Below, piece after piece: positions 4,995-13,967 of a stretch of 64,000 bases of DNA. The notes beneath the pieces are model-generated. The model was given only the letters and a program-made list of their open reading frames with translations. It was not told the origin of the DNA and ran no database searches. The translations under genes were made by a program, and so were the position numbers. The first letter of the stretch is position 1. The number at the start of each line of letters is the position of its first letter. This stretch comes from a virus, in the UHGV virus genome UHGV-1353844. One strand, 5' to 3'.

Positions 4995-5558
4995 ATGGCT
5001 AATACGCTATTAGGTAAATCAGGAAAACAACTGGTTTATGAGTTATTAGTAAAAAAGAATCCAGGTTTGGTAGAGAAAGGTATTACAATCGATAAGTTGA
5101 GTTTTGGAACACCGTCACATATTGCTGCGGTGGAAACACCGGAAACTCAATACACACGATTAAATACCCAACTTACCGTTCAGGGAATTATCGAGCAGAA
5201 AACGTTTGGTAATATCGACGTGATTTATCGTCGGTTGGATTTGGAACATCTGTTAGGTGATTTCGTTGTCTCTGTCGCAGGTGTGAACGCTACTACCGTT
5301 TCTGAAGTATTGGAACTGTTCCGTACGAAGTATAACTTGCAGATTACGGACGACGAAGTTGAGAACCCAACGGCTGCACCAGACAGCAGAGATAAAACCA
5401 TTATTATCATGAACGGGAGATCTTTGGCCTGGACAGGTCAGTTGGAAGTGTACTTAACTGAACTGCCGTCTGACGGTAAGGATATTTCGAAACTGATTAA
5501 AGTCACCGAACTTGACGGTTTGACGTATATCTCTTCTGGGATTGTTCCTGGCGCTTAA
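4995..5558 (+). CDS. Hypothetical protein (187 aa)
   Basis: ORF with GAGAGGAAATA-ATG RBS; followed by bidirectional terminator. Confidence 0.5.
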   Translation: MANTLLGKSGKQLVYELLVKKNPGLVEKGITIDKLSFGTPSHIAAVETPETQYTRLNTQLTVQGIIEQKTFGNIDVIYRRLDLEHLLGDFVVSVAGVNATTVSEVLELFRTKYNLQITDDEVENPTAAPDSRDKTIIIMNGRSLAWTGQLEVYLTELPSDGKDISKLIKVTELDGLTYISSGIVPGA

Positions 5559-5577
5559 AAAAAGAAAAAATAAGAAA

Positions 5578-5612
5578 GTTTACCTACCTCCTTTCGGAGG
5601 TAGGTACTTTTA
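5578..5612. terminator. Bidirectional rho-independent terminator (TACCTACCTCC-TTTC-GGAGGTAGGTA) with A-tract upstream and T-tract downstream
   Basis: Perfect 11-bp stem between convergent genes (5558 + end, 5614 - end); coordinates approximate. Confidence 0.6.
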
Positions 5613-5613
5613 T

Positions 5614-6444
5614 TTATTTCGCCAGGTCTGCTTCTTTTACAAAGATGCCGTCGGCGTTCAGGTAACCTTTACGGTCTTTGATTTCGTGCCAGGCTAGAGA
5701 GAAACAATGACGAATGTCAAGACGATAGTAGAGAGCCAGTTTTGCAAGGCGGTACAAAGCCCAGTTAAGCTGGTCGAACCCAGCATCGGAGCGAATAAAT
5801 GCGGTAGCGAAGATTTCGGTAGCGTGGAGATACAAATGATGTGGATACCCGTTGTCATCAAAATGTTCTTCAACGTCAGCGACATCATCTACCTGCAATT
5901 GTAAACCGTGCTCGATGATTTCAGCGGTTGTCATTTCTCCAGACAGTTTGTCTTTACCCAGTTCCAGGATGTTTACCAGAACCACTAACGCATCACCGAT
6001 CCCATCCATGATCAGTTCAGGTTTGTTTTTACTGATACCTGTTGCGATTTCACCAAACTCTTCAAAGAATTTCGTGATTTGAGTTTCCAGTTTACCGTTA
6101 TCGAGGATGCCGCGTTCTTTAGACCAGCCTTTAACATGTTCTGCACAGTTCGCAATAGAATAGACCGGAACCGACACGGTGTGCATCACAGTACCGTTAT
6201 AAACGGCGTCGGTAAGTTTAATCGGTGCTTCAATCGTTTCGATGTCCAGTTCTTGAGTGCCGGTATGACGTTTACCTTCTACACGAATACGGTTGGTGCC
6301 AGGGTTTACACCGATTGTGTAAATGGCGTCGAACTGAATTGCCTTCTCATTCAGAGCACGCAGTTGTGCGTTAACTTCTTCCAGGTGCTGACCAGGATTA
6401 ACTACGATGTTGTAAATAGCGTTGATGTCAAAACGTTCGCCCAT
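5614..6444 (-). CDS. MazG-like nucleoside triphosphate pyrophosphohydrolase (276 aa) with N-terminal extension containing a short internal repeat (IYNIVVNPG / IYTIGVNPG)
   Basis: MazG-type motifs FFEEFGEIA (EExxE-like) and ELIMDGIGDALVVLVNILELG; C-terminal LAWHEIKDRKG. Motif-level call only. Confidence 0.45.
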   Translation of the reverse strand: MGERFDINAIYNIVVNPGQHLEEVNAQLRALNEKAIQFDAIYTIGVNPGTNRIRVEGKRHTGTQELDIETIEAPIKLTDAVYNGTVMHTVSVPVYSIANCAEHVKGWSKERGILDNGKLETQITKFFEEFGEIATGISKNKPELIMDGIGDALVVLVNILELGKDKLSGEMTTAEIIEHGLQLQVDDVADVEEHFDDNGYPHHLYLHATEIFATAFIRSDAGFDQLNWALYRLAKLALYYRLDIRHCFSLAWHEIKDRKGYLNADGIFVKEADLAK

Positions 6445-6485
6445 TCTAAAACTCCATTAGATTAACAAAAAAAGAATAAGGATTA

Positions 6486-6506
6486 GGGGTGCTACATAAG
6501 CACCCC
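6486..6506 (-). terminator. Hairpin (GGGGTGCT-ACATAA-GCACCCC) with adjacent A-tract on + strand; terminator for minus-strand small-gene unit
   Basis: Inverted repeat between 6515 and 6444; coordinates approximate. Confidence 0.4.
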
Positions 6507-6514
6507 GTGAACTG

Positions 6515-6658
6515 TTAAATTTTGCAAGCCCCGCCTGAGCAGTTATCGTCTTCCGTGGTTGGGTCAGCACCCTTTTCTACGGTCGCTTCCGGGTCTAAGC
6601 CAGGGATTGCAAATTCGTCAGTTTCTTTAACGGTTTCTACTTTAACTTCTTCAGTCAT
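6515..6658 (-). CDS. Small acidic protein (47 aa, MTEEVKVETVKETDEFAIPGLDPEATVEKGADPTTEDDNCSGGACKI), not in ORF track
   Basis: Hand translation; its ATG overlaps the TGA of the upstream 74-aa ORF (ATGA coupling). Weak own RBS. Confidence 0.25.
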   Translation of the reverse strand: MTEEVKVETVKETDEFAIPGLDPEATVEKGADPTTEDDNCSGGACKI

Positions 6659-6879
6659 TTTTTAGTTTCCAAATTTCTTACAAAGGGGTTAACAGTTTTG
6701 ATTTTAAGGTTAGCGAACGGCGACAGAAGTTTCGCCATCGGTGCTAGACCTGGTGGCGTCTCTTTATATCGCACGATGCGCATCTTCGATTTACCTGGAC
6801 CCTTACGTACACGGTTGTAGCCAATAAAATATAGAGTACCTGTAAAGAATCTAAGACTGTGAAAACGTGGTTTTTTCAT
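6655..6879 (-). CDS. Small basic protein (74 aa), hypothetical
   Basis: ORF with ATG start and GGGGA upstream; coupled to downstream 47-aa ORF. Could be non-coding. Confidence 0.25.
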   Translation of the reverse strand: MKKPRFHSLRFFTGTLYFIGYNRVRKGPGKSKMRIVRYKETPPGLAPMAKLLSPFANLKIKTVNPFVRNLETKK

Positions 6880-7049
6880 CAGACATCCCCAAAAGCCAGA
6901 AAGCGTTTACGACCCTTCTGTGGTCCTTTACGCCAGCGACTAGCGATAGTTTTACGATTTACTTTGCAACGGATTCTCTTATTCAGATTGATATACTTTA
7001 TAGTAACTTTAATGACATCATTCGTCATAAAGAATTCCCTCATCATTAA

Positions 7050-7496
7050 TTAACCCATTAAATGGATTACAACGTCTTTAGTTACTGAGTTTGCAAGTAA
7101 GCGGAAGAACTTCATGTAACGGAACATGCTAAAGAAAACCCCAGCGTCGTCTACAATAACAAGGCTGTATTTTTCCTTTTCTGTACCCATTTGGTAACCG
7201 CTGATTTGTGTGATATTCTCCGGTAATTCTTCGAGACCCAAACGGAATAGCACATCGTCCTCTAAGAACCCTTTTGGGTTAACGAACAACACTTTCCCTT
7301 TATGGTTCTTAGCTAACTCGACACCAAAGTCTGTAAGCCCCATCTGCCTACCTGTACCGTAGCGGATAGTACGAAATTCAGATAAAGCGTTGGGACCATA
7401 GCGTTCGGTAAACGGATTATCTTTAGAATCCAGATCGGTTAAACCTTTTGATAATTCTTCTACTACGATGTTATAGTTAACATGAGTTTTAGACAT
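7050..7496 (-). CDS. Hypothetical protein (148 aa)
   Basis: ORF immediately downstream of thymidylate synthase gene on same strand. Confidence 0.5.
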   Translation of the reverse strand: MSKTHVNYNIVVEELSKGLTDLDSKDNPFTERYGPNALSEFRTIRYGTGRQMGLTDFGVELAKNHKGKVLFVNPKGFLEDDVLFRLGLEELPENITQISGYQMGTEKEKYSLVIVDDAGVFFSMFRYMKFFRLLANSVTKDVVIHLMG

Positions 7497-7526
7497 TTTA
7501 TCATACCTTTTTAATTAGACGGTAAT

Positions 7527-8561
7527 TTATACTGCGACGGGGGCCGCAATATGTGGATGTGCTTGATAGCCGACTAATTCGAAGTCTTCGTATTTGTAAT
7601 CGAAGATAGAATCAGGTTTACGTTTGATAACCAGTTTAGGTAACGGGTATGGTTCGCGTGTAAGCTGAAGTTTTGCTTGCTCCAGATGGTTAGAGTACAG
7701 ATGAACGTCCACGCCACTGTAAACTAACTCGTCTGGAACCATATTCAATTGCTGTGCAATCATGTGGGTTAACAACGCGTAAGAAGCGACGTTAAATGGC
7801 GCGCCGAGTAGGTAATCGTTGCTCCGCATCATGTAAAAACATGAAAGCTTACGGCGTGGAATGCCCTCACGATCTAAAGTTTCATGAAGCCGCTCTTCAT
7901 CATCAATATCTTCGTGATTAATAAGCGGTGCGCTCGCAAATTTTTCCGGCTCGTTTACTTCGTACCAATCCAGTCGTTCAAGCAGTGTCATTTCTGTAGT
8001 GTAGAATTGGAAATAGTTGTGGCACGGGTTAAGTGCCATATCGTCCAGGTCGGCTACGTTCCAGGCACTAACGATAATGCGTCGGGAGTCAGGGTCTTCA
8101 CGAAGTTGTTGGATGACCTTACTGATCTGGTCATGTGGTTTTTCATAGACCAAATACGTCGTACCGTCTTCCTTTATGTTCCCAATATACTTGTAACCGC
8201 GCTGCATTAGTTGTTGTGTACGTCCTACATCGTGACATTCCACAACTTTACAGTCGCGCCATTCGCGCCATTGTTTACCATATACTGGCCCTAAGTTCCC
8301 CTCTTCATTCGCCCACTCGTTCCAAATTTTTACCCCATTCTCTTGCAGGTACTTCACGTTAGTGTCACCATTTAAGAACCACAGCAGTTCGTGAATGATA
8401 CTTTTCAGGTGAACCTTTTTCGTAGTAACTAATGGGAAACCTTCTTTCAGGTCAAAACGTAGTTGACGACCAAATACAGAAAGTGTCCCTACACCTGTAC
8501 GGTCTTTCTTGACAACACCGTTATCCAGAATGTCTTGCATTAACGCTAAATACTGTTTCAT
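7527..8561 (-). CDS. thyA: Thymidylate synthase family enzyme (344 aa) with two insertions relative to E. coli ThyA; canonical ThyA or dUMP hydroxymethylase cannot be distinguished by eye
   Basis: Near-identity to recalled E. coli ThyA blocks: MKQYLxLMQ, DRTGxGTLSxFG, [44 protein letters not shown] (catalytic Cys), PFNxASYALL, HLYSNH, PLPKLxIKRKP, DFExxGY. Confidence 0.85.
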
Positions 8562-8869
8562 CAGATTTTGTCCTTTTCTAGTTCAGTTAAAATTTCAAAC
8601 AGGTCTGCGTTGGATTGGAGAACGATTTCACTGCCTTCTGCTACAACGGTAATTGAAGGCTTCTTACCACGTAGCAAGAACTCCCAACGCATTGTTCTTA
8701 CGTGGTTGTCGAGTAACTGCTTTAATTTGTGGTTAACTTCGACTTCCAATTTGCCCAGTAACTGCGGTGTAATAGCTTCGCCTGAATTTTTGTTATAAAG
8801 TGTACGCACTAAAGAACGTAAAGAATAGCCAATGCACTGCGAAATTGCCCAACCCGAATAGTTTTCCAT
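8561..8869 (-). CDS. Hypothetical protein (102 aa)
   Basis: ORF overlapping by 1 nt with downstream ThyA-family gene. Confidence 0.45.
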
Positions 8870-8870
8870 G

Positions 8871-9416
8871 TTAATCCTTCAAAATGTCTTTAAGTTTTAG
8901 TTTTGTATAGAACGGAGAACTACTTAGTTCTTCTGTCCAACTTATACGTCCGTTCTGTAGAACCCGGTCGAAGATTAGGCCGTTCATCTTTACAATTCTG
9001 GTCAATTGATAAAAGAGCGTCGTGTGATGTAATCGACGCTCCATTTGTGCGCGAGCGGTACAACTGCGTACCGCTTTGATAGCAAGTACCGCTTCTGGCA
9101 TCAACGTAACCGCGATTGACTCAGGATGTTCATTTTTCCATTTCTTAATGGCCAGTAGTCTGTGTAATGATTTTTCAAGGGGACGTAAATCCCCGTTATT
9201 CATCACGTAAACTAATGCAGCAATATCCCACAAAGCAATACCTACTGCTTTAGCAACAAACAACCCGTCCTGTGTTGTCGTGGATTCACAGACTTTGCCG
9301 ATACTTCCGTAAACACGTGCAGTCCATGCGTCTGTCTGTTCGCCAGGTTTTATACCCGCGTTATCCAGAAAGTGTTTAAACGCATTAACGTGATCAGTTA
9401 ACTGTATTTGTTTCAT
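8871..9416 (-). CDS. Hypothetical protein (181 aa)
   Basis: ORF tightly packed in the same operon. Confidence 0.45.
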   Translation of the reverse strand: MKQIQLTDHVNAFKHFLDNAGIKPGEQTDAWTARVYGSIGKVCESTTTQDGLFVAKAVGIALWDIAALVYVMNNGDLRPLEKSLHRLLAIKKWKNEHPESIAVTLMPEAVLAIKAVRSCTARAQMERRLHHTTLFYQLTRIVKMNGLIFDRVLQNGRISWTEELSSSPFYTKLKLKDILKD

Positions 9417-9430
9417 TTCCGATACCCGAT

Positions 9431-9895
9431 TTAGTCACGAGACTTTATTTTAAGGTACGCAACCGCAGCTCCCACGATTGCAATCCCGGCACCCCAACCT
9501 ATCTTTTCTATTACACTCATATCGTCCCATCTTTTCTCTTCGTTACGTCGTTCGGCCTCTTCTGCCCGTTCTCTCCACATCGCTTCGCGTTCCAGACAGC
9601 TGGGATTTATTTCCTCTTCACAACGACGTTTCAGTTCTTCTTCCCCAATCAGTTCTTCTAAATAGAGCCTCGTTTCTTCCACAGCTTGTTCATAGACGTC
9701 TATGCGATCGGGAAGAACTCTCCTGTGAGCGGCTTTGTTGCGAACGGAAGCAATCATGTGGAGTTTCCGTTCGTATTTTGGTTCGAGAAGATGAGCTATG
9801 CTTTTGGTCTTCCCATGAAGCCCATGACCGGTACCGCCGAGTTTTTCCACAAGTTCTTCTACAGAAATTGCAAGATCGAGAATATATCCACGCAT
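9431..9895 (-). CDS. Hypothetical coiled-coil protein with C-terminal membrane anchor (154 aa from internal ATG; track starts at TTG 9946)
   Basis: Internal ATG (MRGYILDL) preceded by GGAG; C-terminus IGWGAGIAIVGAAVAYL hydrophobic. Confidence 0.45.
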   Translation of the reverse strand: MRGYILDLAISVEELVEKLGGTGHGLHGKTKSIAHLLEPKYERKLHMIASVRNKAAHRRVLPDRIDVYEQAVEETRLYLEELIGEEELKRRCEEEINPSCLEREAMWRERAEEAERRNEEKRWDDMSVIEKIGWGAGIAIVGAAVAYLKIKSRD

Positions 9896-9955
9896 AATTG
9901 TTTCTCCGCTTAAACGCAGTCTTGGGAGACATAAGTTTGTTCCCAACTGTAAAAA

Positions 9956-10324
9956 TCATTTCAACAAAACAAGATGAATTTGGTATTCGTCATCCGCAGG
10001 AGAAGAATAATCGCCGGTTTCAGGAAACGATAAATCCCCTAGTAGAGTGTGGAAGGATAATCCGTGTACAGCTTCAACTTTTCGTACAAGCGGAAAACCT
10101 GTTCTTTTAATCCAATTGTAATCGACAAACAAAACACCACCAGGACTTCCCGAACCTGACCACACGCGAATGTCCACAGTCTTTCCCGAAAAGTTGGCCA
10201 GTACGGTGCGTAGTTTTAATAGCACACCACGTGTGAGTGGTACTTCAATAACTTGTTTTGGTAAAACAAATTCGGGGAATCTAAAACCGAACCCGTTGGG
10301 GGTATTAAAAAACTGAGCTTGCAT
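9956..10324 (-). CDS. Hypothetical protein (122 aa)
   Basis: ORF with TAAAGGAG-type RBS. Confidence 0.45.
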   Translation of the reverse strand: MQAQFFNTPNGFGFRFPEFVLPKQVIEVPLTRGVLLKLRTVLANFSGKTVDIRVWSGSGSPGGVLFVDYNWIKRTGFPLVRKVEAVHGLSFHTLLGDLSFPETGDYSSPADDEYQIHLVLLK

Positions 10325-10357
10325 GGTAAATTCTCCTTTAGGGTAAAAAAATGAAAA

Positions 10358-10385
10358 TACCCTACTCCCAGACAGGAGTAGGGTA
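10358..10385 (-). terminator. Rho-independent terminator (TACCCTACTCC-loop-GGAGTAGGGTA) for the minus-strand gene ending at 10390
   Basis: 11-bp stem with A-tract on + strand at lower coordinates; coordinates approximate. Confidence 0.55.
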
Positions 10386-10389
10386 GGTG

Positions 10390-11049
10390 TTACATACGGG
10401 TAACTGAATCCCAGTAATCACGAAGATATTCTTGGTCTTCAGGATCTTTTGGCGTAGCCGGAATATGGCCGTCAAACTCAAACGGAATTACAGATAGCAC
10501 ATCCGCAATCTCGTAACGCTCGACTTCCAGTTCAACTTTCACCCAGTCACCAACGCTGGTGCTACTACGCATCTCAGTGATGAGATCGTTGAAGTCACCT
10601 GAAACTTCAATTGCAGGGTGTCCGGTGGTGATACTGAAAATATCAATATCCCAATGCTTAGCCCCTTTATCGGCTAATTCACCCGGCTCTAAGTGAATAC
10701 GTTTCACCAGGTGAGCCAAATAACCGTCTTTGTAAAAAGAGAGTGCGGAACTAATCCCGATATCCGAATTCTCTTCAACCTTTCCGTCTTGGAACTTACG
10801 CTTAAGCGTTAGCTGTGCCGTACCGTCTTCTTTAATACGGATACGACGACGTCCACCTTCTATCGGCATGAGAATGTCCATGAACATTTTGGCTTCTTGT
10901 GCGTGGAGCCAGTCCCATCCCGCTTGCGTCGGTTTTACCCAAACGCAGTATTCCTTTTCGACTTCGTGTTTAATGGACTCACCAGCAACACGAATGATTT
11001 CTTCTTCCTGCGCTTTATCCAGCCGCGCTAGGGTATCGAACAATCCCAT
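10390..11049 (-). CDS. Hypothetical protein (219 aa)
   Basis: ORF followed by terminator. Confidence 0.5.
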   Translation of the reverse strand: MGLFDTLARLDKAQEEEIIRVAGESIKHEVEKEYCVWVKPTQAGWDWLHAQEAKMFMDILMPIEGGRRRIRIKEDGTAQLTLKRKFQDGKVEENSDIGISSALSFYKDGYLAHLVKRIHLEPGELADKGAKHWDIDIFSITTGHPAIEVSGDFNDLITEMRSSTSVGDWVKVELEVERYEIADVLSVIPFEFDGHIPATPKDPEDQEYLRDYWDSVTRM

Positions 11050-11870
11050 TAGATTAATCCCATACGTTCACTGACGTCCGTAATATCGAACGTCGAGTCG
11101 TTATAGTCGATGTTTTCTACGATAGAAACCACCAGATTAGGAAGCCATTCAGAATGTGGTGGTGTAATCACCCGACCGTTCATGACGTAATAATGCAAGA
11201 ACGGAAGATTCATCGAATGGCAGTAAGACAGGGTATTACCTAAACAAGACCCGTCGTATTGCAACAGGTGCAACTTACGCAGCACTGCATTCTTAAATGC
11301 GCCAGTCGCGTAGCTACTAAACTCACCGGGACGGTAATCCGTTTTCCCGTAAATTGCCGCTTTTAATCGACGACCTAACTGAATACATTCCGTACCCGTT
11401 AACGTACGTAAACGAAGAATATCAGGAAATTCAGTCTCCAGACGTCCCATCGTTTTAATCGAGTAACCCATGTGTAACATGTAGTCAACGATACGCAAGT
11501 AGTGATAGTAACCTTCTAACGTCAGGAACTGACCGTGTATCGTGTCAAATTTTGACCCGTCGGGTTTCGCGTAGAAGTTGCTGATCATCTTACCCACGGT
11601 AGTACGACCGTTGGAGTAAAAGTTGATGTGGTTCACCCCATCGGTAAACGGGAGTTGTTCAGGTAAAGCACAAACATAGCCTAACCGTCTCAGGTATAGG
11701 ACATAAGCAAGGCGCTCATCGGGCGTGAGTACAATGCTTGACGCGTTCACGTAGGATTTAGAACGTAAATCGCCCGGCGCATAACCGAGCGTTAAAGCCA
11801 ATGATTGAATGTCTTCATGTTGACTTTTGATTTTCATTAATACGGAGCGCAGTAATTGTGGTTCGGACAT
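11049..11870 (-). CDS. Hypothetical protein (273 aa from internal ATG; track start 11912)
   Basis: Internal ATG (MSEPQLL) preceded by AAGAGG at 6 nt, which removes the overlap with the upstream gene. Confidence 0.5.
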   Translation of the reverse strand: MSEPQLLRSVLMKIKSQHEDIQSLALTLGYAPGDLRSKSYVNASSIVLTPDERLAYVLYLRRLGYVCALPEQLPFTDGVNHINFYSNGRTTVGKMISNFYAKPDGSKFDTIHGQFLTLEGYYHYLRIVDYMLHMGYSIKTMGRLETEFPDILRLRTLTGTECIQLGRRLKAAIYGKTDYRPGEFSSYATGAFKNAVLRKLHLLQYDGSCLGNTLSYCHSMNLPFLHYYVMNGRVITPPHSEWLPNLVVSIVENIDYNDSTFDITDVSERMGLI

Positions 11871-11880
11871 ATCCGGCCTC

Positions 11881-13155
11881 TTAGATTGCAAAGTAGTCTT
11901 CCACGATTTCATCGGTAGACTGATAACTTACACTACCTGCCGCTAAAACGTAGTTACGTTTTTCGGTGGTCATTAGCGCTTGTATCGCGTTAGCGCCTGC
12001 GTAAGTATAAAGTTTCAGTTCAGTGGTTTCAGGAGTAACGTTTTTCGTTTTATCCCATTTGGCATCCAGTGCTTTAAACAACGCTAACATTCGTGTACCG
12101 TACGTACTAAAACTCGTACCGGTTTCCACACGCAAGTTAGCCATGATGTTTTGAATCACGGTTTCCGCAATCTGTTTGCCCTGACCTTCCTGAAGTTTGC
12201 CCAGGTAATACTCTGTTGAGTCCAAGTTACCGGTAGCGGCAGCTTGAATCATCAACTCCCCGTAAAGTGCCTCTTTCGCTTGATCGTCAGTAATAGCCTG
12301 TATCATCGGGTCGATTTTTGCAGGCAGTCCGTAGCTGTTAAGTTTCGTAGACAAACCGTAGATCAGTGCAGACGATGTGTTAATGTCTAACGCTGAAAAA
12401 CTGTCGCTGCCTTTGAAACTGTTAATCAAGTTGTCGATGGCTAAGAAATCGTCAAGGTCTTTATAGCTGTCAAACGTGTGTTGTACGTCATCAATAACTG
12501 AGGTTATCTGGTAACGCATACTGTTGACTTCAGACATAAAGTTGTTGACTTCATGACTGATTTCTGAAGGAAGCTTAGCCAGTTGACCTGCGATATTCAG
12601 CGTTCCTTCGAGACGCTTCTTCACGGAGGAGAAGTCAGTACCGATTCCTGACAGAAGAGAATCACTAAGCGACGACAGACTGTTCCAACCTTTACCCAGT
12701 AAACTTCCTGAGTCACCGGGCGACAAATACCCCAGTGCTTTAAGCCCTTCCTCATTAACCTTTTTGAAAGGTTCTGAAACATCACGCTTCTGCGGATCGA
12801 GAACAGGTAGTGTCTCTTTAGTGTTAGAAGCAAACCCAGGAACTTTTTGTCCTGGGGAAACACCGGAGGTGGAGCTGCCTGCTGTTTTGGTACCTCCTAC
12901 GCTGGCAATGTCACTACCGCCGAATAGGTTACCGATTTTTGAGGTCAGTTCACTTCCACCGCTGATGAGTTTGTTAAAGGTTTCACCGGCACGATCGGAA
13001 AGCTGACTGACTTTATCTACGGTATTCTGGATGCCACGTTCGGCGTTCTCTACCGTAGACTGTACTCGGTTAACCGCATTCTTCGCGGTATTAACCGAGT
13101 TGTCGATAGCCGATTGACCTTTGTTAATCTGGCTGGTTATCTGATCGAGTTTCAT
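11881..13155 (-). CDS. Hypothetical protein (424 aa), Ser/Gly-rich with predicted coiled coil
   Basis: Long ORF; 4-nt overlap with upstream gene. Confidence 0.5.
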   Translation of the reverse strand: MKLDQITSQINKGQSAIDNSVNTAKNAVNRVQSTVENAERGIQNTVDKVSQLSDRAGETFNKLISGGSELTSKIGNLFGGSDIASVGGTKTAGSSTSGVSPGQKVPGFASNTKETLPVLDPQKRDVSEPFKKVNEEGLKALGYLSPGDSGSLLGKGWNSLSSLSDSLLSGIGTDFSSVKKRLEGTLNIAGQLAKLPSEISHEVNNFMSEVNSMRYQITSVIDDVQHTFDSYKDLDDFLAIDNLINSFKGSDSFSALDINTSSALIYGLSTKLNSYGLPAKIDPMIQAITDDQAKEALYGELMIQAAATGNLDSTEYYLGKLQEGQGKQIAETVIQNIMANLRVETGTSFSTYGTRMLALFKALDAKWDKTKNVTPETTELKLYTYAGANAIQALMTTEKRNYVLAAGSVSYQSTDEIVEDYFAI

Positions 13156-13967
13156 TCTGTACTCCGAAATTGATAAGCCTCGAGGTCAACCGTGTGAACG
13201 ACTTCGTAAATCTTGTTGTCGTTTTTGCGTTTTAACGTCAACAGAATATCGAATTTCTTCACATCAATCGCCTTGAGTATCCTCATAAACCATTTCCAAG
13301 ACAGCTTCTTTTTCAGTCGCATGTTGTGCTGCATATTGTGCCGCATGTCATTGCGTTTAGAAGCGATAGGAAGACAGTTCTCTGGATTATTAACATAGTT
13401 CGTTGAAAGTCGATGCCACCAATCCGAAGTCATTTTGATATTCGCAAAGATTGTCCACAGGAGTCTCGAAAGCGGGTGCTCCATCGTCTTTGCTGTCCCC
13501 GCACAATCTCGGAAGAAACGATTTAATTCCGTACTGGCACTGGCCGTCGGTTTCTCGTTACAGTCTTCAAAATCGTAACGGATAAGATCGTCACGCACTC
13601 GTGTGGTGACTTCAGAAATGGTTTTTGTCTGGAAACGTCCACGGTAAGTCGTTATACAGATTCTTAACGATTCTACCCCGGTAATCACTAACCCTTCCGT
13701 GAACCCTCGCCACGTAAGGTCAACCGGTAAGTCACGGTTGTTACCTGAGGTAAGTTTCGTTGAGATGCGTTGTACTCGATCTTCGAGAACGGCCTTCGAA
13801 CGTGTGCGGAAATCAGGGGACAGGATGTGTCTTGCAACTGCAAGCTTATAATCTTTAGGTTCCCACCCAATCTGAGTTTTATATTCCCAGTAAAGTTTTT
13901 GCAACGGTTTACCCGCACGTTCTTCTTCGTCTCGTTGCAGTTTTGCTTTTGCTTCGTTATCCATCAC
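13152..13967 (-). CDS. Hypothetical protein (271 aa)
   Basis: ORF in operon context. Confidence 0.5.
   Translation of the reverse strand: MMDNEAKAKLQRDEEERAGKPLQKLYWEYKTQIGWEPKDYKLAVARHILSPDFRTRSKAVLEDRVQRISTKLTSGNNRDLPVDLTWRGFTEGLVITGVESLRICITTYRGRFQTKTISEVTTRVRDDLIRYDFEDCNEKPTASASTELNRFFRDCAGTAKTMEHPLSRLLWTIFANIKMTSDWWHRLSTNYVNNPENCLPIASKRNDMRHNMQHNMRLKKKLSWKWFMRILKAIDVKKFDILLTLKRKNDNKIYEVVHTVDLEAYQFRSTE

What the first reader, a model, noticed from the sequence alone, without database searches (positions are those of the whole stretch)
5614..9416. Thymidylate synthase homologue with two large insertions and altered active-site neighbours, co-operonic with a MazG-like pyrophosphohydrolase
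The ThyA-family protein (7527-8561) is near-identical to E. coli ThyA at both ends. It has an insertion of about 30 aa after GKQWREW and one of about 45 aa between FQFYT and LSC. The near-invariant YQRSCD becomes MMRSND (Gln to Met, Cys to Asn), while catalytic PCH and the dUMP-specifying Asn of PFNxASY are kept. In phages, TS homologues serve either as genuine TS or as dUMP hydroxymethylases feeding thymidine hypermodification. A MazG-like NTP pyrophosphohydrolase (5614-6444) and three small unknown proteins share the operon. This may be a dTTP-supply or base-modification module.
Basis: partly seen in the sequence, partly recalled or inferred. Interest (0 to 1): 0.6.

Follow-up and report, generated by a model that had tools for sequence, protein, structure and literature searches.

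The report
Jumbo-phage thymidylate synthase with insertions
This is most likely an ordinary thymidine-making enzyme of the form carried by giant nucleus-forming phages, not a DNA-modification enzyme, but a 47-residue neighbour copies the tail of the host's ribonucleotide reductase and deserves a look.

Summary
ORF 7527-8561(-) encodes a 344-aa ThyA that is 65% identical to E. coli ThyA over 264 aligned positions. It has two insertions (aa 103-142 and 190-236) and reads MMRSND where E. coli has YQRSCD.

The base-modification reading is not supported.
- Every catalytic, dUMP-binding and folate-binding residue is in the TS state, and so is the C-terminus. T4 dCMP hydroxymethylase and SPO1 dUMP hydroxymethylase differ at W83, L143, H147 and F176.
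- The protein passes three NCBIfam thymidylate synthase equivalog cut-offs.
- "RSND" without Gln165 also occurs in B. subtilis ThyA (PDB 1BKO) and in 30% of the closest representatives.
- A DHFR gene is annotated in a complete relative that is 95-98% identical at DNA level.

Both insertions are shared with SPN3US, Goslar, phiKZ and Xoo-sp14. The window comes from the recently proposed genus "Bapsvirus".

The MazG-like assignment holds through PHROGs, and the acidic motif is present. Co-transcription with thyA is uncertain.

The most unusual item is the 47-aa ORF 6515-6658(-). It ends ...DDNCSGGACKI, like E. coli NrdA (...DDGCESGACKI). It belongs to an undescribed small-protein family found in phage thymidylate gene clusters and in Neisseria isc operons.

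The parts
7527..8561 (-). thyA: 344-aa ThyA-type thymidylate synthase
   Evidence: Pfam PF00303 E=1e-110. NCBIfam equivalogs NF002499 (413.4 bits, cut-off 405), NF002497 and TIGR03284 are passed. 65% identical to E. coli ThyA over 264 positions. AF2 model pLDDT 94.3. Foldseek TM 0.96, normalised to the target, against E. coli TS.
8136..8255 (-). Insertion 1 (aa 103-142): a strand-helix-strand-strand mini-domain replacing the Ec103-108 loop
   Evidence: Located. Secondary structure is from the AF2 model, where it extends over about aa 101-143. Homologous in SPN3US, Goslar, phiKZ and Xoo-sp14. Two divergent alleles exist within the genus; DNA identity falls to 47-57% here against 95-100% in the flanks.
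7854..7994 (-). Insertion 2 (aa 190-236): four short helices inserted at the Ec155-158 beta-hairpin
   Evidence: Located. AF2 helices 193-203, 205-210, 216-220 and 222-231. Present in about 120 of 153 aligned sequences, with E195, R196 (86%), D230 and P235 (93%) conserved. Present in phiKZ gp235.
7815..7832 (-). MMRSND motif (aa 244-249 = Ec164-169)
   Evidence: The same RSND with a non-Gln at Ec165 occurs in B. subtilis ThyA, PDB 1BKO. Positions 165 and 168 co-vary: Asn168 in 17/45 non-Gln165 sequences against 1/104 Gln165 sequences.
8561..8869 (-). 102-aa ORF, translationally coupled to thyA (TGATG). It matches the C-terminal part of the SPN3US gp038 family.
   Evidence: phrog_10269 positions 201-298, E=4e-12. 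34% identical to the gp038 C-terminus. Sequence read.
8871..9416 (-). 181-aa ORF matching the N-terminal part of the same family (one gene in SPN3US, two here). Its link to MazG is distant, and the acidic metal-binding motif is not visible.
   Evidence: phrog_10269 positions 31-163, E=3e-10; the MazG-like protein also hits the phrog_10269 N-terminus at E=5e-6. The split is conserved in the E. coli relative. Direct BLASTP against the window's MazG is not significant.
7050..7496 (-). 148-aa single RecA1-like (SF2 helicase domain 1) protein with a degenerate Walker A (GTGRQMGLT) and a Walker B-like VIVDDAG. Function unknown.
6879..7046 (-). 55-aa very basic ORF, coupled by TGATG to the next ORF
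   Evidence: Conserved within the genus. No Pfam or PHROG match. Not annotated in the E. coli relative.
6655..6879 (-). 74-aa basic ORF, coupled by ATGA to the 47-aa ORF
   Evidence: No family match.
6515..6658 (-). 47-aa acidic peptide ending ...TTEDDNCSGGACKI, which resembles the C-terminal redox tail of class Ia RNR alpha (E. coli NrdA ...IQDDGCESGACKI)
   Evidence: NrdA tail verified against PDB 2r1r and others. phrog_14561, phrog_38753 and phrog_24014. 56 jumbo-phage records, all stand-alone. Family of 219 proteins of 41-82 aa. Genomic contexts.
6486..6506 (-). 8-bp GC-rich hairpin (GGGGUGCU/AGCACCCC) followed by a U-rich tract, between the 47-aa ORF and MazG. Possible terminator or attenuator.
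   Evidence: region MFE -18.4 kcal/mol, z=-2.75.
5614..6444 (-). 276-aa MazG-like NTP pyrophosphohydrolase: an N-terminal extension of about 95 aa plus an all-alpha MazG domain with an internal insertion
   Evidence: phrog_7855 E=7e-72, phrog_1992 and phrog_715 E=5e-26. Pfam MazG is sub-threshold at aa 120-168. Acidic motif FFEEFGE...MDGIGDALV is read from the sequence. 42% identical to SPN3US gp031 'mazG'. No solved relative by sequence.
5581..5606 (.). Bidirectional intrinsic terminator closing the converging transcription units
   Evidence: 11-bp stem, 6 GC pairs, T tracts on both strands.
10358..10385 (-). Terminator-like hairpin upstream of the gene string. It marks the likely 5' boundary of the unit that contains thyA.
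   Evidence: 12-bp stem followed by a T tract.

Best explanation
ORF 7527-8561(-) is most likely a genuine ThyA-type thymidylate synthase (dUMP + 5,10-methylene-THF -> dTMP + dihydrofolate). It belongs to the TS subfamily carried by phiKZ-like nucleus-forming jumbo phages (family Chimalliviridae). The window comes from the recently proposed genus 'Bapsvirus'.

**Insertions.** The two insertions are conserved, folded additions at two loop positions of an otherwise E. coli-like core. They are inherited features of this subfamily. Insertion 1 is exchanged between alleles within the genus. They are most likely docking or stability elements and do not change the chemistry; this last point is inference.

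**MMRSND.** This motif is one of two co-varying natural states of the strand that carries R166, S167 and D169. It is compatible with TS activity.

**Folate recycling.** The dihydrofolate produced is probably recycled by the phage DHFR, which is encoded elsewhere in the genome.

**Downstream genes.** The MazG-like protein is probably an active (d)NTP pyrophosphohydrolase. The lineage has no recognisable dUTPase, so its most economical role is dUTP (or dCTP) -> dNMP + PPi, which would both clean the pool and feed dUMP to TS. This is inferred, and its substrate is unknown. The 47-aa NrdA-tail-like peptide in the same gene string suggests that the block as a whole serves deoxynucleotide supply.
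For: **Shown**
- Pfam PF00303 matches over the full length.
- Three NCBIfam thymidylate synthase equivalog cut-offs are passed.
- Identity is 65% to E. coli ThyA, against 26% to T4 gp42 and 23% to SPO1 gp29.
- R21, K48, E58, W80, W83, Y94, R126, R127, L143, C146, H147, R166, S167, D169, F176, N177, H207, Y209 and the C-terminal ...APVAV are all conserved.
- The two hydroxymethylases differ: T4 gp42 has W83V, L143D, H147T, F176N and N177D; SPO1 gp29 has W80G, W83F, R127Q, L143D, H147N and F176A. Both differ at the TS C-terminus: gp42 lacks the last residue in the alignment and gp29 lacks both of the last two.
- Positions 147 and 177 are the published discriminators of uracil versus cytosine substrates (PMC8670742).
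- B. subtilis ThyA (PDB 1BKO) reads ...EVRARSND....
- 45 of 149 closest representatives lack Gln165. Of these, 26 keep all 17 key residues checked.
- The AF2 model has pLDDT 94.3, and its core superposes on E. coli TS with TM 0.96.
- The same insertions are present in SPN3US, Goslar, phiKZ gp235 and Xoo-sp14.
- DHFR is annotated in the complete relative NZ_CP173450.1, which is 95-98% identical at DNA level.
- Genus identity follows from PMC12768965.
- MazG-like assignment: PHROG hits, 42% identity to SPN3US 'mazG', and the acidic motif read in the sequence.
- No Dut, T4 gp56 or Tmk homologue was found by tblastn in the relative or the window, and none is annotated.

**Inferred**
- The roles of the insertions, the MazG substrate, and the functional unity of the block.
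Against: - No enzymology or DNA composition data exist for this phage.
- Gln165, which is thought to orient Asn177 (recollection of the L. casei Gln217/Asn229 literature, not checked here), is replaced by Met. An altered specificity cannot be excluded from sequence alone.
- 'RSND' is also the state found in T4 gp42 (NMRSND) and SPO1 gp29 (YNRSND).
- An NT5C-type 5'-nucleotidase is annotated in the relative's genome. Nucleotidases that deplete dTMP are part of hydroxymethyl-U pathways (PMC8989533).
- The hairpin before MazG weakens the 'one operon' picture.
- The Pfam MazG match is below the gathering score.
- The 148-aa RecA1-like protein in the same block has no obvious link to nucleotide supply.
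Confidence: 0.85

Rival explanations
1. The protein is a dUMP hydroxymethylase. It makes 5-hmdUMP for incorporation and later thymidine hypermodification, and MazG removes dTTP or dUTP from the pool.
For: - The RSND motif with a non-Gln at Ec165 is shared with T4 gp42 and SPO1 gp29.
- A MazG-like protein lies nearby, and an NT5C-type nucleotidase is annotated in the relative's genome. Enzymes that deplete the canonical nucleotide belong to such pathways (PMC8989533).
- MazG-like triphosphatases have been proposed to degrade unmodified NTPs in jumbo phages (PMC7824862).
Against: - All positions at which both known hydroxymethylases depart from TS (W83, L143, H147, F176, and the C-terminus: last residue absent in T4 gp42, last two in SPO1 gp29) are in the TS state.
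- Identity to the hydroxymethylases is 23-26%, against 65% to E. coli ThyA.
- The NCBIfam TS equivalog cut-offs are passed.
- RSND occurs in B. subtilis ThyA, deposited as thymidylate synthase A.
- DHFR is encoded in the relative's genome. By the stoichiometry of the two reactions (established knowledge, not checked here), TS yields dihydrofolate and a hydroxymethylase yields THF, so DHFR is needed only in the first case.
- SPN3US carries the canonical LYQRSAD in the same insertion-bearing scaffold.
- No kinase- or glycosylase-like hypermodification genes are recognisable in the neighbourhood.
- Goslar DNA is cut by restriction enzymes.
Confidence: 0.05
2. The enzyme is a TS with relaxed pyrimidine specificity. 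Loss of Gln165 frees Asn177, so the enzyme also methylates dCMP and gives partly 5-methyl-C DNA.
For: - Q165M removes the side chain that, by recollection of the L. casei literature, fixes the orientation of the specificity-determining Asn.
- N177D variants (dCMP-type) do occur among the closest representatives: P0171 and P0205, which lack Gln165, and P0144, which keeps it.
Against: - N177 and H147, the two positions that discriminate cytosine-modifying homologues (PMC8670742), are both in the uracil state.
- B. subtilis ThyA has Ala at Ec165 and Asn at Ec168 and is deposited as thymidylate synthase A. That it is a normal TS is recalled, not checked here.
- No pathway for 5mdCMP phosphorylation or dCTP depletion is evident in the annotation.
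Confidence: 0.03
3. The insertions are neutral decorations or remnants of mobile-element traffic (introns, inteins or homing-endonuclease-driven gene conversion) and have no function of their own.
For: - The insertion 1 site is hypervariable in length (0-272 aa) across representatives.
- Within the genus, insertion 1 exists as two alleles with sharply bounded recombination tracts.
- Variable sites make up 47-49% of the insertions against 17-31% of the core among 120 variants.
- An extra 106-aa ORF sits next to thyA in the E. coli relative.
Against: - Insertion 2 keeps conserved anchor residues (E195, R196 86%, D230, P235 93%) across very distant phages.
- Both insertions fold with high confidence.
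- Both alleles of insertion 1 keep the same pattern of predicted elements and the RGY motif.
- No intein or endonuclease domain was detected in the protein.
Confidence: 0.25

Closest known systems
E. coli ThyA (PDB 2TSC, 1TYS and others)
   Same: 65% identical over all 264 positions. Every catalytic, dUMP-binding and folate-binding residue checked is identical, and the C-terminus is conserved (...APVAV for E. coli ...APVAI). The core superposes with TM 0.96.
   Different: Two insertions (a net gain of 34 and 46 aa), and the strand carrying R166 reads FYMMRSND instead of LYQRSCD.
TS of Chimalliviridae / phiKZ-like jumbo phages (SPN3US gp037, Goslar gp141, phiKZ gp235, Xoo-sp14)
   Same: Both insertions lie at the same sites with homologous sequence. 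Identity is 58-65% over the full length for SPN3US, Goslar and the Erwinia phages. SPN3US-like and Erwinia phages also share the gene order TS ... RecA1-like protein - peptide - MazG.
   Different: - SPN3US keeps the canonical LYQRSAD and Goslar has LLARSQD.
- phiKZ and Xoo-sp14 have a third insertion between W83 and GDLGP.
- Goslar shows neither the peptide nor MazG next to its TS.
B. subtilis ThyA (TS A, PDB 1BKO/1BKP)
   Same: It is deposited as thymidylate synthase A and carries ...RARSND..., that is, a non-Gln at Ec165 and Asn at Ec168.
   Different: It has Val in place of His147. That it has no insertion 2 and belongs to a different TS lineage is recalled, not checked.
T4 gp42 dCMP hydroxymethylase and SPO1 gp29 dUMP hydroxymethylase
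   Same: Same fold family (PF00303). They share the catalytic Cys, E58, Y94 and the RSND motif.
   Different: - Only 23-26% identical.
- Both differ at W83, L143, H147 and F176 and at the TS C-terminus (gp42 lacks the last residue, gp29 the last two). T4 gp42 also has N177D.
- The window protein is in the TS state at all of these positions.
Phage MazG-like pyrophosphatases (PHROG 7855 / 1992 / 715; SPN3US gp031)
   Same: All-alpha MazG domain with an EExxE ... DxxD acidic motif and the C-terminal W..IKDRKG...FVK motif.
   Different: It has an N-terminal extension of about 95 aa and an insertion of about 60 aa inside the domain. The Pfam MazG score is below the cut-off. The substrate is unknown.
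C-terminal redox tail of class Ia RNR alpha (E. coli NrdA residues about 745-761; the peptide in PDB 1QFN)
   Same: The 47-aa ORF is acidic and ends DDNCSGGACKI-stop, against DDGCESGACKI-stop in NrdA. Cys spacing, the KI end and the terminal position are the same.
   Different: It is a free-standing gene with no RNR body. No RNR is annotated in the phage relative. The free-standing family has an extra conserved V-E-G-G-[VF]-D motif that is absent from NrdA.

Membership tests
ThyA-type thymidylate synthase (EC 2.1.1.45; PF00303 / TIGR03284) | Whole-protein match above curated family cut-offs | tested here: met
   PF00303 369.5 bits (cut-off 24.3). NF002499 413.4 (405), NF002497 398.6 (327) and TIGR03284 343.3 (108.35), all equivalogs.
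ThyA-type thymidylate synthase (EC 2.1.1.45; PF00303 / TIGR03284) | Catalytic Cys146, phosphate-binding R21, R126', R127', R166 and S167, general acid/base network E58, H147 and Y94 | tested here: met
   All are conserved in the alignment to E. coli ThyA.
ThyA-type thymidylate synthase (EC 2.1.1.45; PF00303 / TIGR03284) | Uracil specificity: Asn177 (with His147) | tested here: met
   N257 and H181 are present. These positions are the published discriminators (PMC8670742).
ThyA-type thymidylate synthase (EC 2.1.1.45; PF00303 / TIGR03284) | Folate-binding and hydride-transfer environment: W80, W83, L143, D169, F176, Y209 and the C-terminal ...APVA(I/V) carboxylate | tested here: met
   All are conserved, and the C-terminus is ...AAPVAV.
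ThyA-type thymidylate synthase (EC 2.1.1.45; PF00303 / TIGR03284) | Gln165 supporting Asn177 | tested here: not met
   Met at this position. The feature is not universal: 45/149 representatives and B. subtilis ThyA lack it.
ThyA-type thymidylate synthase (EC 2.1.1.45; PF00303 / TIGR03284) | Products are dTMP and dihydrofolate; the gene complements thyA | not testable with these tools
   Needs enzymology or genetics. Indirect support: DHFR is encoded in the complete relative.
Pyrimidine hydroxymethylases (T4 gp42 dCMP-HMase; SPO1 gp29 dUMP-HMase) | Departure from the TS residues at W83, L143, H147 and F176, and a truncated or missing TS C-terminal tail. These features are shared by the two characterised enzymes and were derived here from the alignment. 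| tested here: not met
   The window protein has the TS residue at each position and a full C-terminus. Identity is 23-26%.
Thymidine hypermodification module (dUMP-HMase + 5-HMUDK kinase + aGPT-Pplase and others; PMC8989533) | A 5-hmdU DNA kinase and transferase genes in the vicinity of the TS homologue | tested here: inconclusive
   Pfam and PHROG scans of the ORFs from 5614 to 13967 name nothing of this kind. Most of these ORFs are of unknown function, and no query with known 5-HMUDK sequences was run.
MazG / all-alpha NTP pyrophosphohydrolase superfamily | Family profile match | tested here: inconclusive
   Pfam MazG 19.5 bits, below the cut-off of 22. The PHROG MazG families match strongly (7e-72, 9e-40, 5e-26). 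No structure prediction was run for this protein.
MazG / all-alpha NTP pyrophosphohydrolase superfamily | Acidic metal-binding motifs (EExxE ... [ED]xxD) | tested here: met
   FFEEFGE (aa about 126-132) and MDGIGDALV (aa about 146-154) are read in the sequence within the Pfam-aligned stretch 120-168.
Class Ia RNR alpha C-terminal tail | C-x4-C dithiol at the extreme C-terminus in an acidic, disordered segment (...DDxCxxGACKI-stop) | tested here: met
   The 47-aa ORF ends DDNCSGGACKI-stop. The E. coli NrdA tail was verified. The same DNA pattern finds NrdA ends in at least 98 bacterial genomes.
Class Ia RNR alpha C-terminal tail | Attachment to an RNR catalytic body | tested here: not met
   It is a free-standing 47-aa ORF. 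No nrdA or nrdB is annotated in the complete relative.

The most novel reading that the evidence does not exclude
The gene string is a phage deoxynucleotide-supply block, and its unrecognised key part is the 47-aa peptide. The peptide would be a free-standing copy of the host RNR alpha C-terminal dithiol tail. It would be reduced by host glutaredoxin or thioredoxin and would act in trans on host NrdA, or as a decoy or adaptor for those reductases. A phage with no RNR of its own could in this way tune host dNTP production. The conserved TS insertions would then be docking surfaces that hold TS together with its partners.

The peptide belongs to an undescribed small-protein family.
- In Enterobacterales jumbo phages it lies next to the MazG-like gene and about 1-3 kb from ThyA.
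- In an unrelated group of phage contigs of about 57 kb it lies next to a dNMP kinase, ThyX and dUTPase.
- In Neisseria and Eikenella it lies between iscS and iscU.
Probability: 0.2. Interest if true: 0.7.

Novelty: new member of a known kind. Interest (0 to 1): 0.3.

Why it matters
For the finding as stated, the result is mainly a caution. A TS homologue with large insertions and a changed YQRSCD motif is the normal form in phiKZ-like jumbo phages. It should not be read as a marker of thymidine hypermodification. The positions that separate TS from hydroxymethylases are W83, L143, H147, F176, N177 and the C-terminus, not Gln165 or residue 168.

Three smaller points could be of use.
- Insertion 2, with its conserved Glu-Arg and Pro anchors, defines a large TS subfamily. 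No solved structure in the Foldseek search of the PDB covers both insertions.
- Within 'Bapsvirus', thyA is a recombination mosaic. Insertion 1 and the MMRSND strand are swapped as cassettes.
- The NrdA-tail-like peptide family links phage thymidylate gene clusters and bacterial Fe-S assembly operons. It gives a directly testable idea about how phages that lack RNR deal with the host's dNTP supply.

Tried and rejected
**Searches that found nothing or little**
- Megablast of the region against INPHARED phages gave no hit. The lineage was found only through bacterial assemblies and 'plasmids'.
- Pfam and NCBIfam gave nothing for any small ORF.
- Rfam on 5400-9700 gave only sub-threshold chance matches.
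- The sigma-70 promoter scan found fewer sites than the shuffled controls. It is not informative for a phage family that uses its own RNA polymerases (recollection).
- PDB sequence searches with MazG and with the 47-aa peptide gave nothing meaningful. The NrdA link had to be verified in the reverse direction.
- Two cluster-member look-ups for names of TS representatives were almost uninformative. They named only Xoo-sp14.
- Literature searches found no description of the TS insertions, of SPN3US DNA modification, or of the peptide family.

**Ideas considered and rejected**
- I suspected that the roughly 390-nt stretch left unannotated in the E. coli relative was an RNA or an intron. It is filled by two translationally coupled small basic ORFs.
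- I tested whether the 148-aa protein is a thymidylate or dNMP kinase. It has a RecA1/helicase-like fold and lacks the Walker A lysine.
- I tested whether the 181-aa upstream ORF is a second active MazG. Direct similarity is not significant and the acidic motif is missing.

- I could not obtain model coordinates. The positions of the insertions relative to the active site and the dimer interface were therefore not computed.

Full report
**1. What is there**

The minus strand between a terminator-like hairpin at 10385-10358 and a strong bidirectional terminator at 5581-5606 carries a tight string of ORFs. In transcription order they are:

| Coordinates | Size | Identity |
|---|---|---|
| 9956-10324 | 122 aa | unknown |
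| 9431-9946 | 171 aa | unknown |
| 8871-9416 | 181 aa | N-part of the SPN3US gp038 family |
| 8561-8869 | 102 aa | C-part of the same family |
| 7527-8561 | 344 aa | thyA |
| 7050-7496 | 148 aa | RecA1-like protein |
| 6879-7046 | 55 aa | basic, unknown |
| 6655-6879 | 74 aa | basic, unknown |
| 6515-6658 | 47 aa | NrdA-tail-like peptide |
| 5614-6444 | 276 aa | MazG-like |

Stop and start codons overlap between the 102-aa ORF and thyA (TGATG). They also overlap along the 55-, 74- and 47-aa ORFs (TGATG and ATGA). An 8-bp GC-rich hairpin followed by a U-rich tract separates the 47-aa ORF from MazG (z=-2.75). Co-transcription of MazG with thyA is therefore plausible but not shown.

**2. Where the window comes from**

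The region has no nucleotide match among 50,697 phage records.
- The ThyA protein is 95-100% identical to more than 120 entries from Salmonella, E. coli and Shigella isolate assemblies, on contigs of about 222-226 kb.
- The DNA is 95% identical to a 221,873-bp circular 'plasmid' of E. coli 98232 and 94% identical to a 222,441-bp 'plasmid' of Enterobacter ludwigii.
- This fits the jumbo-phage genus 'Bapsvirus' (family Chimalliviridae). That genus was proposed in 2025 from phage genomes hidden in bacterial assemblies (PMC12768965).
- Gene order is shared with SPN3US: gp041, gp038, gp037 (TS), gp033, gp032 and gp031 (mazG).

**3. The observation**

- phmmer aligns the protein to E. coli ThyA in three blocks: 1-102/1-102, 143-189/109-155 and 237-344/157-264.
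- Insertion 1 is aa 103-142 (net +34 aa). Insertion 2 is aa 190-236 (net +46 aa).
- Core identity is 65% (172/264). That is high, but not 'near-identical'.
- The strand carrying R166, S167 and D169 reads FYMMRSND instead of LYQRSCD.

**4. TS or hydroxymethylase?**

I aligned the protein with E. coli ThyA, SPN3US and Goslar TS, T4 gp42 (dCMP hydroxymethylase), SPO1 gp29 (dUMP hydroxymethylase) and the 150 closest representatives from a full HMMER scan.

- *Residues kept.* The window protein keeps R21, K48, E58, W80, W83, Y94, R126, R127, L143, C146, H147, R166, S167, D169, F176, N177, H207, Y209 and the C-terminal APVAV.
- *How the hydroxymethylases differ.* Both depart from TS at W83, L143, H147 and F176. 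In the alignment gp42 lacks the last residue of the TS C-terminus and gp29 lacks the last two. gp42 also has N177D.
- *Published discriminators.* Positions 147 and 177 are the published discriminators of uracil versus cytosine substrates (PMC8670742).
- *Identity.* Identity to the hydroxymethylases is 23-26%.
- *Curated cut-offs.* The protein passes three curated NCBIfam thymidylate synthase equivalog cut-offs.

Both hydroxymethylases also carry RSND (T4 NMRSND, SPO1 YNRSND). This state is not diagnostic, for three reasons.
- B. subtilis ThyA, deposited as thymidylate synthase A (PDB 1BKO), reads ...EVRARSND....
- 45 of 149 representatives lack Gln165, and 26 of those keep every one of the 17 key residues checked.
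- Asn168 accompanies a non-Gln165 in 17/45 cases against 1/104 with Gln165. The two positions therefore form a co-varying pair.

Within the same insertion-bearing scaffold, SPN3US has the canonical LYQRSAD and Goslar has LLARSQD. The complete E. coli relative encodes DHFR. By reaction stoichiometry (established knowledge), TS yields dihydrofolate and a hydroxymethylase yields THF, so DHFR is needed only in the first case. DNA of Goslar was analysed with restriction enzymes, and the paper does not mention resistance (PMC6563267).

I conclude that this is a genuine TS, with confidence 0.85.

**5. The insertions**

An AF2 model built on a 50-sequence alignment is confident (pLDDT 94.3, pTM 0.92).
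- The core superposes on E. coli TS. TM is 0.96 normalised to the target and 0.74 normalised to the query.
- Insertion 1 folds as strand-helix-strand-strand.
- Insertion 2 folds as four short helices, with one lower-confidence loop.
- No solved TS covers both insertions.
- I could not obtain model coordinates, so the positions of the insertions relative to the active site and the dimer interface were not measured.

Neither insertion is peculiar to this gene.
- Full-length homologues are annotated as TS in SPN3US-like, Goslar and many Erwinia jumbo phages.
- phiKZ gp235 (488 aa) and Xoo-sp14 TS (407 aa) carry both insertions plus a third one.
- Insertion 2 is present in about 120 of 153 aligned sequences. 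E195, R196 (86%), D230 and P235 (93%) are conserved.
- The insertion 1 site varies from 0 to 272 aa among representatives.

Within Bapsvirus the gene is a mosaic. Against another member, DNA identity falls from 95-100% to 47-57% in codons of about 94-150 (insertion 1). It falls to 70-73% in codons of about 232-270 (the MMRSND strand and the following helix). The boundaries are sharp.

What the insertions do is not known. Docking to partner proteins is my inference.

**6. The neighbours**

*MazG-like protein.* It matches PHROG MazG families strongly and is 42% identical to SPN3US gp031 'mazG'. It shows the acidic motifs FFEEFGE and MDGIGDALV. It scores below the Pfam cut-off and has no solved relative by sequence. 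The relative has no recognisable Dut, T4 gp56-type dCTPase/dUTPase or Tmk, either by annotation or by tblastn. A role in making dUMP from dUTP is therefore attractive, but it is untested.

*The 181- and 102-aa ORFs.* They correspond to the two halves of one SPN3US gene, gp038. The split is conserved in the E. coli relative. The family is distantly MazG-like, but the acidic motif is not visible.

**7. The item I find most interesting**

The 47-aa ORF ends ...TTEDDNCSGGACKI. E. coli NrdA ends ...IQDDGCESGACKI. I verified the NrdA sequence against PDB entries, and one of these, 1QFN chain B, is the isolated 25-residue tail peptide. By recollection, 1QFN is the glutaredoxin-1 mixed-disulfide complex.

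*Distribution in phages*
- The C-terminal 30 residues are conserved in 56 jumbo-phage records of Enterobacterales. The ORF is always free-standing; in the records where both positions are listed it lies 2.3-3.4 kb from the TS gene.
- In every fetched jumbo-phage locus where those genes are matched it is adjacent to the RecA1-like and MazG-like genes.
- No RNR is annotated in the complete relative.
- A DNA pattern for DDxCxxGACKI-stop finds two classes in IMG/VR. One class is the ends of long NrdA ORFs. The other is 26 short ORFs, of which 23 have 36-78 aa, and most of these share an extra V-E-G-G-[VF]-D motif.

*The wider family*
- A profile search finds 219 proteins of 41-82 aa, none with a Pfam domain.
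- In an unrelated group of phage contigs of about 57 kb, the peptide lies next to a DNMK-type dNMP kinase, ThyX and dUTPase.
- In Neisseria and Eikenella it lies between iscS and iscU.
- In Alishewanella it lies next to an amidohydrolase gene that resembles dihydroorotase (pyrC) in size and family; the family match is and the pyrC reading is my impression.
- In Pasteurella testudinis it stands alone.

I found no description of this family in the searched literature.

A trans-acting or decoy dithiol arm recognised by glutaredoxin or thioredoxin, or by IscS, is a reasonable hypothesis. It remains speculative.

**8. Verdict**

The finding is real but ordinary. It is a new member of the jumbo-phage ThyA subfamily, most likely a normal TS in a deoxynucleotide-supply context. 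The base-modification reading is not supported. The region's novelty lies in the unexplained conserved insertions, the cassette-like allelic exchange inside thyA, and the NrdA-tail-like peptide family.

Noticed in passing
window 6515-6658 (-); also L086 5001-5210, L090 4001-4147, L091 4710-4856, L117 4212-4406: A 47-aa acidic ORF ends DDNCSGGACKI, like the redox-active C-terminal tail of E. coli NrdA (DDGCESGACKI). It belongs to a family of 219 free-standing proteins of 41-82 aa with no Pfam domain, and I found no description of it in the literature. Members lie next to MazG and ThyA in Enterobacterales jumbo phages, next to a dNMP kinase, ThyX and dUTPase in phage contigs of about 57 kb, and between iscS and iscU in Neisseria and Eikenella.
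   Followed up: partly
window 8109-8282 and 7749-7868 (inside thyA): Against another member of the genus (L018), DNA identity drops from 95-100% to 47-57% over insertion 1. It drops to 70-73% over the MMRSND strand and the following helix. The boundaries are sharp, so thyA is a recombination mosaic with at least two allele types.
   Followed up: partly
whole window; relatives NZ_CP173450.1 and NZ_CP134650.1: The window belongs to a jumbo phage of about 222 kb that is absent from the phage collection. It is deposited as a circular 'plasmid' in E. coli and Enterobacter ludwigii, and it is present in many Salmonella, E. coli and Shigella assemblies. It matches the proposed genus 'Bapsvirus', family Chimalliviridae.
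   Followed up: yes
   Followed up: partly
window 8561-9416 (-): The gene upstream of thyA is one ORF of 289 aa in SPN3US (gp038). Here it is two ORFs in different frames (181 and 102 aa), separated by TAA-C-ATG. The split is conserved in the E. coli relative. The family is distantly MazG-like, but the acidic catalytic motif is missing.
   Followed up: partly
window 6655-7046 (-): Two very basic small ORFs (55 and 74 aa) have overlapping stop and start codons. They fill a stretch that is left unannotated in the RefSeq relative. They are conserved within the genus and match no family.
   Followed up: partly
L003 7158-7478 (E. coli relative): The relative carries an extra 106-aa ORF between thyA and the 102-aa ORF. 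It is absent from the window and matches no family.
   Followed up: partly
representatives P0128, P0143, P0145, P0147, P0156, P0167, P0174 and others: Many TS representatives carry 160-270 extra residues at the insertion 1 site. These could be inteins, endonucleases or added domains. They were not examined.
   Followed up: no
NZ_CP173450.1 28603-30724, 97030-97566 and 169521-170072: Annotated elsewhere in the relative's genome are two adjacent radical SAM proteins, DHFR and an NT5C-type 5'-nucleotidase. No RNR, dUTPase or thymidylate kinase is annotated.
   Followed up: no
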